Made by a program: the position numbers and the translations under genes. Below are positions 4,812 to 9,971 of a stretch of DNA of 24,377 nucleotides, in pieces. The notes below the pieces were generated by a model, which saw only the letters and a program-made list of their open reading frames with translations, did no database searches and was not told where the DNA came from. Origin of the DNA: a virus (taxonomy: Duplodnaviria > Heunggongvirae > Uroviricota > Caudoviricetes). Position 1 is the first letter of the stretch. Each line of letters begins with the position of its first letter. The DNA lies in IMG/VR virus record IMGVR_UViG_3300031994_000056, one strand, 5' to 3'.

Positions 4812-5309
4812 ATGAATATAAATTTACAAACAACATGGCTTGATTACCCAGACAATGAAAGTTTAGCAGTTATATTTTATACATACGGATGTATACATAA
4901 ATGTAAAAATTGTCATAATTTAGACCTACAAACTCCAGTAACATCCTATCCGAGCAGTATAATTGATGAAATCTTCACGTATTGTAAGCGAAATAATACA
5001 AATAAACTTGTATTATCAGGAGGTGATTGTCTGCTTAAAGAAGTAAATTTAAACTTAACAAATACCATTATAGATAAGTATAGTAAAGAATTAAATATCT
5101 GTATCTATACAGGATATGATATTGATTATGTAAAAACCAATGTTCATAAAGGATTTAAATTTGTTAAGTGTGGTAAGTATGATGAAACTAAGAAAATTGA
5201 ACCTAACAAAACTGACACTTATTTTCAATTAGCATCCACAAATCAATGTTTATATGACAGTAGTTACCAATTATTAAGTAATAATGGTAAATATTATTTT
5301 AACAAATAG
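4812..5309 (+). CDS. nrdG: Anaerobic RNR activating enzyme (radical SAM)
   Basis: GCIHKCKNCHN (CxxxCxxC), VLSGGD, IYTGY and KCGKY motifs; directly upstream of nrdD. Confidence 0.92.
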   Translation: MNINLQTTWLDYPDNESLAVIFYTYGCIHKCKNCHNLDLQTPVTSYPSSIIDEIFTYCKRNNTNKLVLSGGDCLLKEVNLNLTNTIIDKYSKELNICIYTGYDIDYVKTNVHKGFKFVKCGKYDETKKIEPNKTDTYFQLASTNQCLYDSSYQLLSNNGKYYFNK

Positions 5310-5318
5310 GAGAAAGAA

Positions 5319-7499
5319 ATGAGTAAAGAACAACAAGAAGAATTTAAAAAACCTATTAAGGTCGATTATCCAGAGTTTAATATTGAAGATCCAGTGGAAT
5401 ATCAGAAAGAACTAGATAAAATAACAGACCAATATTTCATCAACGCGTCTACAACAAGAACTCTTAAAAATATAAGAGAAGTATTAGTTAATAAATTAAG
5501 AAAAAAATATCATTTAACTAATGGTCAACTTAAAGCAGCAGCTGATTCTATACTTAAAATTCATGGATTACATGAAGATAACTTTGATGAAACATTACAA
5601 TTCTCAAAGTTTATAAGTGCAAAGAATAATAATGAATTAAGTATTGATGGTAATGCAAATAAAACTGAAACAGGTATTAAAGCATTAATGGTAGAGTCAA
5701 CACTTGCTTCAAGAAAGCTAATCGGTTTTGATCAACTTTACAGAGTTATGGTTGATTTATACGGCAGAGAAAAAGCAAAAGAATTATCTGGAAGTATGTA
5801 TGACTTATCTTTAGCTATTGCAGACTCCACTAATTTACTAATTCCATATTGCTATGCTGCAGACTTCTCAAAACTTGTTACATTAGGAAGAGAATTTGGA
5901 AAAGAACCTTCAGCTCCAGCAAAAAGATTAAGCACATACTGTAATATTGTTTGTGATACTGTAAGAGAATTAAGCTGTCATTTAGCAGGAGCAGTAGCAA
6001 TTTCTACATTCTTTTTAGACTCTGCTCACTTATTAATATATAAAGAAAGAATTCCTTTAGAAAAAATTAAAACAAATAAAAGAGTTAGATATTATATAAA
6101 CAATTGTTACCAACAAGTTATCTATTCATTAAACCATGCTTCAAGAGATGCAGTTGAATCTCCGTTTACAAATGTATCTTGCTTTGATGAATATAAACTT
6201 AGAACACTTGTTAGTGATATGGCTTGGTATTTTCCAATGAAAATAAAAGCTCTTATAGATAATAATATGGATGATGAAGTACTTGGTCATAAAATGACTG
6301 AAGATGAATGGAAAGATTTTGTTATAGACTATATAATGACATTACAAGAAATTTATATAGATATATTCAATGAAGGTAATCCTTTAAAAGGTGGATTACA
6401 GTTTGCTTTTCCAGTTACAACTATAAACTTTTCTGTTAAATATAACGACAAAGGTGAAAGAGAAATCCAAGAACCAAACAGATTATTAAATTATGCAACA
6501 AAAAAAGACATTAAAAGATATAATGTTTATGTTAGTGAAGGGACTAAAGTAGCGTCCTGTTGCAGATTGATAAATGATACTGAAATGTCAGAACTTGCTT
6601 CGTCTGTTAATTCATTTGGAGGTTCTTCTATATCATTAGGTTCAGATAGAGTTGTTACTATTGACCTCTTAAGAATTGCTTTCGAATGTAAAGACTATGA
6701 AGATTATAAAAGAATATTGAAGTTAAGAATAGACCATTGTGCAAAGATATTAAAAGCACATAGAGTACTTATAATGAAATTAAAATCATTAGGTACACAA
6801 CCTTTTATATCAAACGGTTGGATTAACTTTGGTAGAATGTTCGGTACATATGGTTGTATCGGATACTTTGAAGCTGATAAAATATTAAAGAAAAGATTTG
6901 ATAAAGACTTTGATTATATGAAAGACTTTATGATTTATCTTAATCAAGAAGTCGATAATAAAAAGAAAGAAGTAGATGAAAACGGAAATAAATTATACAA
7001 TTTCCCAATGAACATTGAGCAGATTCCAGGTGAATCGATGGCTATTAAGATAGCTAAAGTGGATAAAATTCTTTATCCAAATGAAGAAATACCTACAGTT
7101 TTAGCTAACCAGTTTGTTTCATTATGGGAAGATAAAACAATCTATGAAAAAATGGATAGAGATGGGGAACTTAATAGACTATTAACTGGTGGTGGAATTT
7201 GTCATATACAATGCTCTGAAAAACTATCATCACATCAAGCAAAGAAACTTATTAAGTATGCCGCCAAGAGTGGTTGTGATCACTTTGCTATTAATGGTGT
7301 ATATATGAAATGTAACGATTGTAATACTGTTGTAGAAAGTAGTGGTGATACATGTCCTAAATGTGGTGGTAAACATGTAGAACATTATACAAGAGTAATT
7401 GGTTTCTTTAGTAAAGTAGAAAATTGGATACCAGAAAGACAAACAGCAGATTTTCCTAATAGAAAATTTGTTGACGTAAAAACAATTGACTCTAAATAA
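5319..7499 (+). CDS. nrdD: Class III (anaerobic) ribonucleoside-triphosphate reductase
   Basis: SPFTN, FPVTT, finger loop SCCRL, EQIPGES, GGGICHI, Zn ribbon CNDC..CPKCG and glycyl-radical loop YTRVIGFF. Confidence 0.95.
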   Translation: MSKEQQEEFKKPIKVDYPEFNIEDPVEYQKELDKITDQYFINASTTRTLKNIREVLVNKLRKKYHLTNGQLKAAADSILKIHGLHEDNFDETLQFSKFISAKNNNELSIDGNANKTETGIKALMVESTLASRKLIGFDQLYRVMVDLYGREKAKELSGSMYDLSLAIADSTNLLIPYCYAADFSKLVTLGREFGKEPSAPAKRLSTYCNIVCDTVRELSCHLAGAVAISTFFLDSAHLLIYKERIPLEKIKTNKRVRYYINNCYQQVIYSLNHASRDAVESPFTNVSCFDEYKLRTLVSDMAWYFPMKIKALIDNNMDDEVLGHKMTEDEWKDFVIDYIMTLQEIYIDIFNEGNPLKGGLQFAFPVTTINFSVKYNDKGEREIQEPNRLLNYATKKDIKRYNVYVSEGTKVASCCRLINDTEMSELASSVNSFGGSSISLGSDRVVTIDLLRIAFECKDYEDYKRILKLRIDHCAKILKAHRVLIMKLKSLGTQPFISNGWINFGRMFGTYGCIGYFEADKILKKRFDKDFDYMKDFMIYLNQEVDNKKKEVDENGNKLYNFPMNIEQIPGESMAIKIAKVDKILYPNEEIPTVLANQFVSLWEDKTIYEKMDRDGELNRLLTGGGICHIQCSEKLSSHQAKKLIKYAAKSGCDHFAINGVYMKCNDCNTVVESSGDTCPKCGGKHVEHYTRVIGFFSKVENWIPERQTADFPNRKFVDVKTIDSK

Positions 7500-7514
7500 A
7501 AAATTTAGTATAAT
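7486..7514 (+). promoter_or_regulatory. Near-consensus sigma70 promoter overlapping the nrdD 3' end
   Basis: TTGACT (7486-7491), 17-nt spacer, TATAAT (7509-7514). Predicted start about 7521-7522, at the 5' end of the tRNA-like RNA. Confidence 0.85.
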
Positions 7515-7521
7515 ATAAAAA

Positions 7522-7659
7522 GATCTTTGTATAGCTCAACGGGAGAGCGGCTTGCTTTGCAAGCGACTGTTACAGATTTATGAACTTATCACTCATAAAT
7601 TGATGGTAACATAGACTTGATATGTCGAGGTGGTGGTTCAAATCCACTTACAAAGGTCA
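7522..7659 (+). ncRNA. tRNA-shaped RNA with a 62-nt structured insert at the variable-arm position
   Basis: Acceptor CTTTGTA (7525-7531) / TACAAAG (7649-7655); TA then D arm GCTC-AACGGGA-GAGC (7534-7548); hairpin GCTTGC-TTT-GCAAGC (7550-7564); insert 7565-7626; GAGGT; T arm GGTGG-TTCAAAT-CCACT (7632-7648). No encoded CCA. Confidence 0.8.
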
Positions 7660-7678
7660 CATTTTTTAGGGGAAAAAG

Positions 7679-7867
7679 ATGAGTAAAAAAATGAAATCCT
7701 ATTGGTTTTTATATGAAGAAATAAAAAAATGCACGGATTGTCCTTGTAATTTTTTAGATGGGCATCAAAGTTACTGTAGGCTTTTAAAAAAATTTAATGT
7801 AAACAAAAAGAAAGATTGCCCTTTAGAAATCGTAGAAGAATGTAAATTTGTAGGAGGTACTGACTAA
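7679..7867 (+). CDS. Small Cys-rich hypothetical protein
   Basis: 62 aa with CTDCPC, CRLL, CPL and a further Cys. AGGGG RBS; TAATG overlap with thioredoxin. Confidence 0.65.
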   Translation: MSKKMKSYWFLYEEIKKCTDCPCNFLDGHQSYCRLLKKFNVNKKKDCPLEIVEECKFVGGTD

Positions 7868-8142
7868 TGCTAAATATTATCAAAATTTATACATCTTTTT
7901 GTGTACCATGTAAAATGTTAATCCCTGTATTAGAAAAATTACAGGCAGAATTTACAGGCAAAATTTCAATTCAAGATGTTAATGTAGATGAAGGTATACC
8001 GGAATTATATGCAGATATGAATATAATGAGCACACCTACATTACTATTTATAAAAGATGGAGTGCTATTAAAAAAGATTGTAGGTCTTAGATCTTATGAG
8101 TCTTTAAAAGAATTAATAACTAAATTACTTGAGGAAAAATAA
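7867..8142 (+). CDS. trxA: Thioredoxin
   Basis: CVPC active site in (T)SFCVPCKML, VNVDE, cis-Pro motif STPTLLFIKDG and VG; 91 aa; GGAGG RBS. Confidence 0.9.
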   Translation: MLNIIKIYTSFCVPCKMLIPVLEKLQAEFTGKISIQDVNVDEGIPELYADMNIMSTPTLLFIKDGVLLKKIVGLRSYESLKELITKLLEEK

Positions 8143-8143
8143 T

Positions 8144-8290
8144 ATGGTTGAATGTCCTGTGTGTGGAAGTTTAAAAGTTAAAGTAACTGGACAGTTTTAT
8201 AAATGTACAAATTGTAATTACACTTGGAAGAAAGGTTGCCCAACTTGTGGGAGGAATTTAAATGATAATACAATTAAAAGATGTAGATGA
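8144..8290 (+). CDS. 48-aa zinc-ribbon protein (absent from the ORF track)
   Basis: My translation: MVECPVCGSLKVKVTGQFYKCTNCNYTWKKGCPTCGRNLNDNTIKRCR*. Three CxxC plus one Cys; GAGG RBS at 8131-8134; fills the gap between trxA and 8262. Confidence 0.7.
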   Translation: MVECPVCGSLKVKVTGQFYKCTNCNYTWKKGCPTCGRNLNDNTIKRCR

Positions 8291-8627
8291 TTGGTCTGTT
8301 CAAGACTTTATAAGATATATAAAATCAAAATGTAGTTTAAAAGGTATAGATTATACAGCAAAAACAAAACAATCTTTTATGATATTAGGTAGAACTTTTA
8401 AACTTTTAAAGTTAAATAATAAAAGTAAAAGTTGGTTAAAAAATAAAATTGATATATTTTTAAATAGTGAAACAACGGAAAGTGTTACAAACCTTTTATT
8501 TATAAATTACTTAACAAGAACATTTCCTAGACAATTACAGGATAATACTATAAAAAACTTACCTAAAGTAAATAAAATATCTGAAGATGTAAAACGAAAA
8601 TTAGTTATGCTACGGAGTTGTTTATGA
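8262..8627 (+). CDS. Hypothetical basic protein
   Basis: 121 aa with GGAGG RBS at 8250-8254; no motif recognised. Confidence 0.7.
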   Translation: MIIQLKDVDDWSVQDFIRYIKSKCSLKGIDYTAKTKQSFMILGRTFKLLKLNNKSKSWLKNKIDIFLNSETTESVTNLLFINYLTRTFPRQLQDNTIKNLPKVNKISEDVKRKLVMLRSCL

Positions 8628-8883: not shown

Positions 8884-9237
8884 TTACTTTTCAGTATTAT
8901 CAATATCATCAACAGCTTTTTTAGCATCATCAATAGCTTTTTTAGCATCCCATTTAGCATCGTCTACAGATTTTCTTACATCCCAATAAAGTTTAAATGC
9001 TTCTTCTTCGGAAAGATTAAACTCATTAATAAGTTTTGGAACAATTGTTCTTTCATTTTCTCCAGCTTTTAATCCTTCTTTTATAGTATCAAACTCTTTT
9101 TCATAATTTTTAAACTCATCTTTTGAAATATCAAGAGCTTTCAATACTATACAAGCTTCTCTTATAGCCTTTGAATCATTTCTGTCTAATGCGTCATTTA
9201 ATTGTGCTTCTACAATTTTTTGTGCTTCTCTTTTCAT
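8884..9237 (-). CDS. Hypothetical helical protein with C-terminal heptad repeat
   Basis: 117 aa, GAGG RBS, ATGA overlap with the holin-like gene; ends DAKWDAKKAIDDAKKAVDD. Confidence 0.75.
   Translation of the reverse strand: MKREAQKIVEAQLNDALDRNDSKAIREACIVLKALDISKDEFKNYEKEFDTIKEGLKAGENERTIVPKLINEFNLSEEEAFKLYWDVRKSVDDAKWDAKKAIDDAKKAVDDIDNTEK
8905..8946. repeat. 21-bp tandem repeat, 2 copies, in frame
   Basis: ATCATCAACAGCTTTTTTAGC / ATCATCAATAGCTTTTTTAGC, one mismatch. Confidence 0.85.
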
Positions 9238-9566
9238 TTCTTTTTACCTCTCCTATTTGTAATTTTATTTACTGCATTATTAATTACTTCTGTAGCATCT
9301 ACTTTTATATCTGTATCTTTAGTTATTGTTTCTGTTTTAGTATCTGTACTCTTAAATTGGAAAGCAGATTTATTATCAAAACAACTAAAGCCAAAACATC
9401 CACTGCTAAATGTTAAAAACATTATAGGGTATTCCATTGGATATTTTAATGTAGCTAAAACAACTGCTACTATAAAAGATAAAATACCCATTACAATCTT
9501 GGAATTTACATTTCCACTTGCGTCACAAATCATACTTAAAAAATAATTTTTAATTGACTTAAACAT
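9234..9566 (-). CDS. Putative holin
   Basis: 110 aa with two hydrophobic segments (IVMGILSFIVAVVLA; YPIMFLTFSSGCFGF) and a charged tail ending RRGKKK, at the end of the late block. Confidence 0.55.
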   Translation of the reverse strand: MFKSIKNYFLSMICDASGNVNSKIVMGILSFIVAVVLATLKYPMEYPIMFLTFSSGCFGFSCFDNKSAFQFKSTDTKTETITKDTDIKVDATEVINNAVNKITNRRGKKK

Positions 9567-9575
9567 ATACTCTCC

Positions 9576-9971
9576 TTACTTAGCTACAAATACCCCTAAT
9601 ATAACGCCAACTGCAAATGCAATTCCAATTGTATATTTATAAATTGATTCTTTGTCTTTTGACCTGTTCAATAATTGCTGATAATTCTCGTTCTGCTTCT
9701 CCATTAGCTGAAACTTTTCCAAGTAATTCTTCTCTAATGTTTGCGACTCTTTCATTTGCTTCTCTAACTCGTTCTTCTGATTGTCTAATTCGTTCTTTTG
9801 TTTCTCTAATAAGATCATCATATCTTCGTTGTTGAGCCTCAATTTGTCTATTTGCTTCGTTAAGTTGTTCAGCTGCTCGCTTGTTATGTAAAAAGTATCC
9901 TGCGAAAAAGCAACCTGTACACACAAGCAAAAACAAAATAATAAAACCAACAATTCCTTTATATACGTCAT
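9576..9971 (-). CDS. Signal peptide, coiled coil and C-terminal TM protein (spanin-like, overlapping ORF B)
   Basis: 131 aa: hydrophobic N-terminus ending AFS|Q, long heptad region, C-terminal TM YTIGIAFAVGVILGVFVA. Its stop TAA sits in the holin RBS (TAAGGAG). Confidence 0.7.
   Translation of the reverse strand: MTYIKELLVLLFCFCLCVQVAFSQDTFYITSEQLNNLTKQIDKLRLNNEDMMILLEKQKNELDNQKNELEKQMKESQTLEKNYLEKFQLMEKQNENYQQLLNRSKDKESIYKYTIGIAFAVGVILGVFVAK

What the first reader, a model, noticed from the sequence alone, without database searches (positions are those of the whole stretch)
7486..7667. tRNA-shaped RNA with its own consensus promoter, a non-canonical anticodon arm and a 62-nt insert
Seen: correct acceptor, D and T arms. 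The anticodon arm folds either as a 6-bp stem with a UUU triloop, or as CUUGC-UUUGCAA-GCGAC (Ala UGC loop, 4 bp) without the Ala G3:U70 pair (U3-A70 here). The insert 7565-7626 sits where a 4-5 nt variable loop belongs; deleting it leaves a normal-looking GAGGT. The acceptor extends to 10 bp (GATCTTTGTA / TACAAAGGTC) starting at the predicted transcription start, has no CCA, and is followed by ACA-U6. The insert is far too short for a group I intron or tmRNA. Inference: a tRNA mimic, such as a decoy for anticodon nucleases or T-loop-reading proteins, an unusual processed tRNA, or a tRNA-like leader controlling the trx operon that starts 12 nt after the U-run.
Basis: partly seen in the sequence, partly recalled or inferred. 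Interest (0 to 1): 0.78.

Follow-up and report, generated by a model that had tools for sequence, protein, structure and literature searches.

The report
Phage tRNA-shaped RNA with kissing hairpins
This is a real, conserved phage gene for an RNA that keeps the folded shape of a transfer RNA but cannot read codons and instead carries two extra hairpins whose tips base-pair with each other; it belongs to a small RNA family for which I found no description, and its job is untested.

Summary
Window 7525-7656 (+) scores as tRNA in Rfam (38.4 bits) with about 60 nt inserted in the variable region, and it follows an 11/12 sigma-70-type promoter.

It is not a decaying pseudogene. I found ten homologues in four phage lineages. 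Across the 11 sequences, 29 of 38 stem pairs show compensatory changes. The tertiary tRNA pairs 15-48 and 19-56 also covary.

- **Not a decoder:** the arm at the anticodon position is a 6-bp stem with a triloop here. The Ala-type 7-nt loop is broken in 5 of 6 close relatives. The discriminator base takes all four values, and CCA is never encoded.
- **The insert is a module:** it has a long hairpin with an invariant GUUAC/GUAAC base and a short hairpin. Their loops are complementary in every member through five different sequence pairs, so they form a kissing lock rather than anticodons.
- **Context varies:** the element precedes unrelated genes, or a tRNA, in other phages, and is absent from near relatives. 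It is therefore not a trx-specific leader.

My best reading is a non-decoding, trans-acting tRNA mimic released by tRNA-processing enzymes. Its partner is unknown. The scan's earlier unchecked notes describe this kind of RNA on other DNA (e1-5427655, e1-130305).

The parts
7486..7514 (+). Sigma-70-type promoter TTGACT-N17-TATAAT. The spacer holds the palindrome CTAAAT-N5-ATTTAG. The predicted start is near 7521-7522, 3-4 nt before the RNA's first paired base.
   Evidence: Matches 11 of 12 positions and is the only such site in 7000-8400. Conserved in all eight close relatives, including the two that lack the element. L141 has TTGACT-N17-TATAAA 7 nt before its copy.
7525..7531 (+). Acceptor stem, 5' strand (CUUUGUA). 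It pairs with 7649-7655.
   Evidence: All 7 pairs show double changes across the 11 sequences and are 100% paired. Pair 3-70 is never G-U.
7534..7548 (+). D arm (GCUC-AACGGGA-GAGC), preceded by U8 A9.
   Evidence: Rfam alignment. A15 (7539) pairs with U48 (7631), and G19 (7542) pairs with C56 (7639); both tertiary pairs covary.
7550..7564 (+). H1, the hairpin at the anticodon-arm position: a 6-bp stem GCUUGC/GCAAGC with a UUU triloop. Its sequence looks like a relic of a tRNA-Ala(UGC) anticodon arm.
   Evidence: The triloop stem is 100% paired with 2 compensatory pairs and one G-U. The 7-nt-loop alternative is 66.7% paired, and two of its five pairs are broken in 5 of 6 sequences. The loop size varies between lineages.
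7568..7611 (+). Long hairpin (LH). The lower stem (U)GUUAC/GUAAC(A) is invariant. An asymmetric internal loop (AG opposite UGAUG) follows, then an 8-9-bp upper stem and the loop ACUUAUCAC.
   Evidence: The lower stem is identical in all 11 sequences, while all 8 upper-stem pairs show double changes. RNAalifold predicts it independently.
7614..7626 (+). Short hairpin (SH): GAC-UUGAUAU-GUC.
   Evidence: All 3 pairs show double changes.
7587..7591 (+). UAUCA in the LH loop, the proposed kissing partner of UGAUA at 7618-7622 in the SH loop.
   Evidence: Loop-loop complementarity of 4-7 nt occurs in all 11 sequences through five different sequence pairs. Loops of the most divergent members pair 6-7 nt with their own partner and 2-3 nt with foreign ones.
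7632..7648 (+). T arm (GGUGG-UUCAAAU-CCACU).
   Evidence: Rfam alignment. 4 of 5 pairs show double changes.
7649..7656 (+). Acceptor stem, 3' strand (UACAAAG), plus discriminator G. No CCA follows.
   Evidence: The discriminator is G, A, C or U across the family.
7657..7678 (+). Trailer UCACA-U6, then the Shine-Dalgarno GGGGA (7669-7673) of the 62-aa ORF that starts at 7679. The element is co-transcribed with what follows.
   Evidence: No terminator-like site is scored. The U-run is absent in the L010 group.

Best explanation
The locus encodes a roughly 132-nt non-decoding, tRNA-shaped small RNA that belongs to a small family shared by unrelated rumen or gut-type phages. It is transcribed from a strong host-type promoter that starts 0-4 nt before its 5' end, as the first unit of an operon. 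It folds into a genuine tRNA L-shape, with acceptor, D and T arms and the 15-48 and 19-56 tertiary pairs. A closed short hairpin sits where the anticodon arm belongs. A 62-nt module sits in the variable region: a long hairpin with an invariant GUUAC/GUAAC base and internal loop, and a short hairpin, whose loops base-pair with each other. Inferred steps: the tRNA shape lets host RNase P, RNase Z and the CCA-adding enzyme cut the RNA free of the downstream mRNA or tRNA and stabilise it. The invariant helix, held in place by the loop-loop lock, is the working surface that binds a host factor. The RNA would therefore act in trans as a tRNA mimic, and as an accessory function, plausibly in phage-host conflict over tRNAs. 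Shown here: the gene, the fold, the loop pairing, the lack of decoding features and the patchy distribution. Not shown: expression, processing, the partner and the biological effect.
For: The Rfam tRNA match places the insert in the variable region. Ten homologues were found: L010, L015, L016, L018 and L022; L130; L141 and L133; L144 and L145. On the six close sequences every helix is 100% paired, with 12 compensatory pairs, and RNAalifold gives the same fold. On 11 sequences, 99.3% of cells are paired and 29 of 38 pairs show double changes. The Levitt pair 15-48 and the pair 19-56 covary. G-U pairs are compatible only with a + strand RNA. The Ala-type anticodon loop is broken in 5 of 6 sequences. 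H1 loop size, the discriminator base and the acceptor sequence all vary, and CCA is never encoded. The loop-loop complementarity is kept through five different sequence pairs. The element precedes unrelated genes or a tRNA gene, with its own promoter in L141. It is absent from L011 and L012, from 45 records of NrdD-related phages and from 5 close relatives of G051. No protein is shared by all carrier phages, so any protein partner would have to be host-encoded.
Against: There is no expression or processing data. The family is small, with 11 sequences in five loop types, and alignment A9 was fitted to the model's structure, which inflates the share of paired cells. In L144 and L145, H1 is a 5-bp stem with a 7-nt loop (G-U-GAG-A-A) that could in principle decode. 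In L141 and L133 the D loop lacks GG and the T loop is UGUAAUU, so the canonical elbow is not universal. The element usually lies 15-30 nt before a ribosome-binding site, which also fits a cis role. The long hairpin (about 15 bp) is much longer than the short one (3-5 bp), so an intramolecular kiss needs a sharp bend, and the pairing could instead be between molecules. The search of large genomes scored only 67 candidates per record, so absences there are soft.
Confidence: 0.55

Rival explanations
1. The element is a cis-acting processing or stability signal, comparable to the t-elements of plant mitochondria or mascRNA. The tRNA shape would only recruit RNase P and RNase Z, to separate the upstream nrdD read-through transcript from the downstream message and define its 5' end. 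The released RNA would have no function.
For: It lies between the promoter and the first ribosome-binding site, with no conserved terminator. Three of the four other lineages also place it 15-30 nt before a ribosome-binding site. Relatives without it carry a plain 5' hairpin at the same place. Mitochondrial t-elements are documented (PMC1920247, listed).
Against: A processing signal needs only the acceptor and T half of a tRNA. Here the 62-nt module is conserved, with an invariant helix and covarying kissing loops. In L141 the element precedes a tRNA gene behind its own promoter and after a terminator. The downstream genes are unrelated between lineages.
Confidence: 0.2
2. It is a working, aminoacylated tRNA of unusual build. 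Either H1 would be the anticodon arm of a class-II-like tRNA, or it would be a two-anticodon-arm tRNA-Ile in which the loops CU-UAU-CA and UU-GAU-AU are Ile anticodon loops.
For: The tRNA core is intact. In the window the two loops have 7 nt with U at position 2 and read UAU and GAU. L144 and L145 have a 5-bp stem and 7-nt loop at the H1 position. The scan's earlier unchecked notes describe phage tRNA-Ile genes with UAU and GAU arms.
Against: H1 is a triloop in 8 of 11 members, supported by covariation. GAU becomes GAC or AGU, and UAU becomes CAU, AAU or other triplets, in relatives, while the mutual complementarity of the two loops is what stays constant. The long hairpin has about 15 bp, is separated from the D stem by H1, and has C where a purine-37 belongs. 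The discriminator and acceptor are not conserved, and G3:U70 is absent.
Confidence: 0.08
3. It is a self-assembling RNA.
For: Two loops within one RNA are complementary and covary. From my own knowledge, this is the signature of phi29-type pRNA. The very unequal hairpin lengths make an intramolecular kiss geometrically demanding.
Against: There is no similarity to pRNA and no Rfam match other than tRNA. The carrier phages differ in size and gene content, and the loci examined lie among nucleotide-metabolism and replication or recombination genes rather than packaging genes. Nothing here tests oligomerisation.
Confidence: 0.1
4. It is a decaying tRNA pseudogene with a random insertion.
For: Default ARAGORN misses it. 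The anticodon arm is aberrant.
Against: 29 of 38 pairs show compensatory changes, the tertiary pairs covary, and the insert itself is conserved across four phage lineages. The insert is not a repeat in the genome.
Confidence: 0.02

Closest known systems
Bacteriophage T4 'species 1' RNA (rnaC) and 'species 2' RNA (rnaD), small stable RNAs of the T4 tRNA cluster
   Same: Both are phage-encoded RNAs of about 120-140 nt, co-transcribed with tRNAs or operons. Both have a tRNA-type T arm and paired ends plus extra long hairpins (for the rnaC fold). Neither has a known function.
   Different: They are not homologous: model R1 gives only 12.3 bits on rnaC. In my fold rnaC shows no canonical D arm and no loop-loop complementarity comparable to this family. 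The family here keeps the full tRNA core, including the 15-48 and 19-56 pairs.
Bacterial and phage Y RNA-like RNAs (YrlA, Rfam RF02553), partners of Ro60/Rsr (PMC4201824)
   Same: Both are non-decoding RNAs with a tRNA-like domain (D and T arms, tertiary pairs) that tRNA enzymes recognise. Both occur in phages. The host phage and L154 both encode RtcB.
   Different: RF02553 has no match at the locus and the genome has no TROVE gene. The topology is inverted: YrlA has its ends in the Ro-binding stem and a closed 'acceptor'. The GGUCCGA-like Ro motif is absent.
Class II tRNAs (Leu, Ser, Tyr) and long-armed allo-tRNAs (PMC5389517)
   Same: Both have a cloverleaf core with extra structure in the variable region. 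The Levitt pair is kept.
   Different: The variable region here holds two hairpins (62 nt) joined by a loop-loop pairing, not one 3-7-bp arm. There is no conserved anticodon loop or discriminator.
phi29-family packaging RNA (pRNA)
   Same: Both are phage RNAs from a strong promoter in which two loops of the same molecule are complementary and covary between relatives.
   Different: pRNA is not tRNA-shaped, and there is no sequence or model similarity. The pRNA loops pair between molecules on the portal; here the mode of pairing is unknown.
Engineered tRNA scaffolds, and viral tRNA-linked RNAs such as the MHV68 tRNA-miRNA units and mascRNA
   Same: Both use the tRNA fold as a handle for RNase P and RNase Z processing and for stability.
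   Different: Those examples are eukaryotic or artificial. Here the cargo sits in the variable region and is itself conserved.

Membership tests
Canonical decoding tRNA (Rfam RF00005) | Cloverleaf with acceptor, D and T arms and a score above the gathering threshold | tested here: met
   38.4 bits against a gathering score of 29. All three arms covary.
Canonical decoding tRNA (Rfam RF00005) | Tertiary core pairs R15-Y48 and G19-C56 | tested here: met
   Both pairs covary: A-U with G-C at 15-48, and G-C with A-U at 19-56.
Canonical decoding tRNA (Rfam RF00005) | A 5-bp anticodon stem with a 7-nt loop (U33, purine 37) kept among relatives | tested here: not met
   The arm is a 6-bp stem with a triloop, supported by covariation. 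The 7-nt-loop fold is broken in 5 of 6 sequences. The loop is 3, 7 or about 14 nt in different lineages.
Canonical decoding tRNA (Rfam RF00005) | Conserved aminoacylation identity (discriminator, acceptor pairs; G3:U70 for Ala) | tested here: not met
   The discriminator is G, A, C or U. All 7 acceptor pairs vary, and pair 3-70 is never G-U.
Canonical decoding tRNA (Rfam RF00005) | 3' CCA and charging in vivo | not testable with these tools
   CCA is not encoded in any member. Whether it is added, and whether the RNA is charged, needs experiments.
tRNA gene with an intron (group I, or bulge-helix-bulge type) | An intron in or near the anticodon loop with ribozyme or bulge-helix-bulge features, leaving a normal tRNA after removal | tested here: not met
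   No intron family matches in Rfam at E up to 10. At 62 nt the insert is far shorter than group I introns as I know them. It lies in the variable region and is a conserved two-hairpin module. After removal the anticodon arm would still be a triloop.
YrlA / bacterial Y RNA (RF02553) | Match to the covariance model and adjacency to a Ro60/TROVE gene | tested here: not met
   There is no RF02553 match at the locus. The best match elsewhere in the genome is 17.7 bits against a gathering score of 69. No PF05731 match occurs in the 300-kb genome.
tmRNA | A tRNA-Ala-like domain with G3:U70 plus a tag reading frame | tested here: not met
   ARAGORN finds no tmRNA. The acceptor has U3-A70. At 132 nt the RNA has no room for a tag frame and pseudoknots.
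T4 rnaC/rnaD-type stable RNAs | Sequence or structure homology to T4 rnaC | tested here: not met
   Model R1 gives 12.3 bits on a partial match to T4 rnaC. The resemblance is one of kind only.
Two-anticodon-arm phage tRNA-Ile (UAU + GAU), known only from this scan's earlier notes | A canonical UAU anticodon arm next to the D arm, plus a variable-arm hairpin that displays a conserved GAU | tested here: not met
   The UAU-bearing hairpin has about 15 bp and is separated from the D stem by H1. GAU is replaced by GAC or AGU in relatives, while loop complementarity is kept.
Cis-regulatory leader (riboswitch, T-box or attenuator) | Alternative terminator/antiterminator or SD-masking structures tied to a conserved downstream gene | tested here: not met
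   No terminator-like site is found and the U-run is not conserved. The downstream genes are unrelated, or a tRNA.
Phage tRNA-scaffold RNAs with kissing loops (this scan's notes e1-5427655 and e1-130305; unpublished) | A tRNA body that displays two hairpins whose loops pair, with covariation | tested here: met
   for this family.

The most novel reading that the evidence does not exclude
That factor could be, for example, a tRNA-cleaving defence nuclease or a tRNA-sensing regulator. It would be an RNA-only counter-defence or host-takeover device built on the tRNA fold.
Probability: 0.15. Interest if true: 0.85.

Novelty: new variant of a known kind. Interest (0 to 1): 0.68.

Why it matters
Phage tRNA genes are usually read as codon-usage helpers or as spare parts against anticodon nucleases. 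This element shows a phage keeping the complete tRNA fold, including its tertiary pairs, while giving up decoding and adding a conserved, self-locking module. The same RNA is shared by unrelated phages and is missing from near relatives, which is the pattern of accessory host-interaction functions. Standard tools either miss it (ARAGORN) or would label it a tRNA (Rfam), so annotations can miss or mislabel such genes. A defined family with a covariance model, a testable loop-loop pairing and an invariant helix gives a concrete way to ask what tRNA-shaped non-coding RNAs do in phage infection. That question has been open since the T4 species 1 and 2 RNAs were described.

Tried and rejected
- **DNA similarity:** blastn (distant mode) of the element against 50,697 phage records found no match.
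- **First NrdD locus scan:** The search for related loci with the single NrdD protein in viral contigs found nothing.
- **Pattern scans without true hits:** searches gave none (L014 is a chance match in a coding region). One search gave none. One search failed because I set one gap a base too long. L017, L019, L020 and L021 and L128 and L129 are chance matches.
- **False positive from R1:** the match on G005 and G007 (L121, L120) is a tandem pair of ordinary tRNA-Ala(UGC) and tRNA-Ile(GAU) genes.
- **Insert as a repeat or mobile element:** the genome holds only short chance matches.
- **Ro60/Y RNA link:** rejected for this phage.
- **K-turn in the internal loop:** I checked this by eye against the consensus I recall, and it does not fit.
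- **Ile-anticodon reading of the two loops:** rejected once L130, L141, L144 and L145 were found.
- **Shared phage-encoded partner:** no protein is shared by all carrier phages. RtcB is present only in the host phage and in L154.
- **Sequencing runs:** no RNA holder was listed.
- **tRNA listing in 12 relatives:** the table was cut before low-scoring long matches, so it was uninformative.
- **Literature:** five searches found no description of such an RNA. The library excludes most subscription journals.
Full report
**What is there.** The window is positions 52155-76531 of a 300,445-bp, 26% GC uncultured virus record that CheckV rates 98% complete. The surrounding genes are:
- a NadM/Nudix gene;
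- nrdG;
- nrdD (5319-7499);
- the element;
- a 62-aa Cys-rich ORF (7679-7867);
- thioredoxin.

Rfam's tRNA model matches 7525-7656 (+) at 38.4 bits against a gathering score of 29. About 60 nt are placed as an insertion in the variable region. Default ARAGORN finds nothing. With introns allowed it offers an unconvincing tRNA-Ala(tgc) with a 43-nt intron. The single-sequence fold has z = -4.4. It shows:
- a 10-bp acceptor;
- the D arm;
- a 6-bp stem with a UUU triloop;
- a long hairpin and a small hairpin;
- the T arm.

The promoter TTGACT-N17-TATAAT (7486-7514) matches 11 of 12 positions. It is the only such site nearby and one of 18 TTGACW-N16-18-TATAAT sites in the genome; another precedes the phage's tRNA cluster. 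No terminator-like site is scored.

**Homologues in close relatives.** No similar DNA exists in the cultured-phage collection. NrdD does have many metagenomic relatives. Contigs whose NrdD is 88-91% identical carry the same element at the same place, after the same promoter: L010, L015 and L016. A pattern scan of JGI metagenomes added L018 and L022. Two equally close relatives, L011 and L012, have the same promoter and downstream genes but no element; they carry a simple 5' hairpin instead.

On the six sequences every helix is 100% paired and 12 pairs show changes on both sides. RNAalifold predicts the same fold on its own. Two tertiary tRNA pairs covary:
- R15-Y48 is A-U in two sequences and G-C in four.
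- 19-56 is G-C in five and A-U in L015.

G-U pairs occur in several helices, which fits only a + strand RNA. This rules out a decaying pseudogene.

**The anticodon position.** The Ala-type arm (7-nt loop UUUGCAA) favoured by Rfam is only 66.7% paired, and two of its five pairs are broken in 5 of 6 sequences. The U6 run is not conserved either; the L010 group reads AAUGAAAGAAAAAAGGAG.

**A wider family.** A covariance model (R1) and further pattern scans found more distant members:
- **L130:** 62.8 bits, on a phage-like contig of a yak-rumen MAG.
- **L141 and L133:** 51 bits, in roughly 50-kb phages with terminal repeats.
- **L144 and L145:** 99-106 bits, in 21-kb and 37-kb phage records.

In the 11-sequence alignment A9, which is fitted to the model, 99.3% of cells are paired and 29 of 38 pairs show double changes. 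The lower stem of the long hairpin (GUUAC/GUAAC) is identical in all 11. Its flanks are also almost fixed, reading UGUUAC-RG, UGNYG-GUAACA and UAR.

H1 differs between lineages:
- a 6-bp stem with a triloop in the window clade and in L141/L133;
- a 5-bp stem with the 7-nt loop GUGAGAA in L144/L145;
- an irregular form in L130.

The discriminator is G, A, C or U. All acceptor pairs vary, pair 3-70 is never G-U, and CCA is never encoded. Decoding and a fixed aminoacylation identity are therefore not what is conserved.

**The loops pair with each other.** In the window the long-hairpin loop (A-CUUAUCA-C) and the short-hairpin loop (UUGAUAU) look like Ile-type anticodon loops (UAU and GAU). The scan's earlier notes describe phage tRNA-Ile genes with two such arms, so I tested that reading and it fails. 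In relatives the triplets change, but the two loops stay complementary to each other. The five pairs are:
- UAUCA/UGAUA;
- AUCAA/UUGAU;
- UAAUCA(A)/(U)UGAUUA;
- UAGUCA/UGACUA;
- UGACUAA/UUAGUCA.

The complementary run is 4-7 nt in every member. The loops of L130 and of L141/L133 pair 6-7 nt with their own partner and only 2-3 nt with foreign partners. Shuffled loops reach the observed run in 0.06-5% of trials, except for L016 at 11%. This is covariation for a loop-loop helix. Whether it forms within one molecule, which would need a sharp bend at the conserved internal loop, or between molecules as in phi29 pRNA, cannot be decided here.

**Context and distribution.** The element always lies at the head of a transcription unit, but what follows differs:

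| Member | What precedes the element | What follows the element |
|---|---|---|
| Window clade | Sigma-70-type promoter | Small ORFs and thioredoxin |
| L130 | Terminator-like hairpin | A 73-aa ORF and a PolA-like gene |
| L145 | No clear promoter | A YqaJ-like exonuclease |
| L141 | Terminator, then TTGACT-N17-TATAAA 7 nt before the first base | A tRNA gene |

With the broader model R2 I found no further member in 45 records of NrdD-related phages, nor in five close relatives of G051. Only 67 candidates per large record were scored, so those absences are soft. No protein is shared by all carrier phages. RtcB is present in the host phage, where it is interrupted by about 1 kb, and in L154, but not in G051 or G052. 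The distribution is that of an accessory, exchangeable RNA gene. If it has a protein partner, that partner would have to be host-encoded.

**Comparison with known RNAs.**
- **Rfam:** nothing but tRNA matches, even at E up to 10.
- **YrlA:** there is no model match and no Ro60/TROVE gene in the genome. The topology and the Ro motif also differ (PMC4201824).
- **T4 rnaC:** this is the nearest precedent in kind, a phage stable RNA of 139 nt with a T arm and long hairpins. It is not homologous, at 12.3 bits.
- **Literature:** five full-text searches found no description.
- **Earlier scan notes:** unchecked notes report the same kind on other DNA: 'tRNA-scaffold RNA with kissing loops' (e1-5427655) and 'tRNA-shaped scaffold locked by a loop-loop kiss' (e1-130305). 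I could not compare sequences with those loci.

**Verdict.** The gene, its tRNA-like three-dimensional core, its lack of decoding features and the loop-loop pairing are well supported. Three things are inferred and untested: release by RNase P and RNase Z, action in trans through the invariant helix, and a role in conflict over tRNAs. No RNA sequencing run was listed for this DNA. A purely cis role as a processing signal remains the main rival.

Noticed in passing
Own genome 13963-14067 (outside the window; L008:1501-1609): A second insert-bearing tRNA-like gene scores 32.5 bits on RF00005. It is GC-rich, ends in CCA, and has about 31-35 extra nt around the anticodon region. Its fold is not better than shuffled sequence (z = -1.1). 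Model R1 does not match it.
   Followed up: partly
L109:1501-1860 (IMGVR_UViG_3300017527_000512): Two tandem tRNA genes carry inserts of about 60 nt in the anticodon loop (RF00005, 49 bits each). The YrlA model scores 39.9 bits across their junction. A third structured RNA follows, and then an ORF starting at L109:1886 whose N-terminus looks like Ro60/TROVE. This appears to be a Y-RNA-like array in a phage.
   Followed up: partly
Own genome 201092-203353 (outside the window); L154:10863-12020: The jumbo phage encodes an RtcB RNA ligase interrupted by about 1 kb, possibly an intein. It is 59-62% identical over its two pieces to the uninterrupted RtcB of the L130/L154 phage, which also carries the element.
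   Followed up: partly
L015:1069-4311 and L016:1357-4599: In these close relatives NrdD is 1080 aa long and carries an intein, with Intein_splicing and LAGLIDADG hits. The window's NrdD (726 aa) has none.
   Followed up: no
L011 and L012, about 5182-5254: These relatives have the same promoter and downstream genes but lack the element. In its place is a 5' hairpin, GTGTCCCTA...TAGGGACAC, directly after the -10 box.
   Followed up: partly
window 7492-7508: The promoter spacer contains a perfect palindrome, CTAAAT-N5-ATTTAG, in the window and several relatives. The L010 group has a 1-2-base variant (CTAAGT...ATTTGA). It could be an operator.
   Followed up: no
window 9234-9971 (-): The small ORFs at 9234-9566 and 9576-9971 are 53% and 37% identical to ORFs of G052, the unrelated 37-kb phage that also carries the element. 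This hints at a shared host or gene exchange.
   Followed up: no
Own genome 9045-9131 (outside the window): ARAGORN calls an 87-nt tRNA-Met(CAU) with a 3-bp variable arm capped by a GUAA loop. That is unusual for a Met or Ile2-type tRNA.
   Followed up: no
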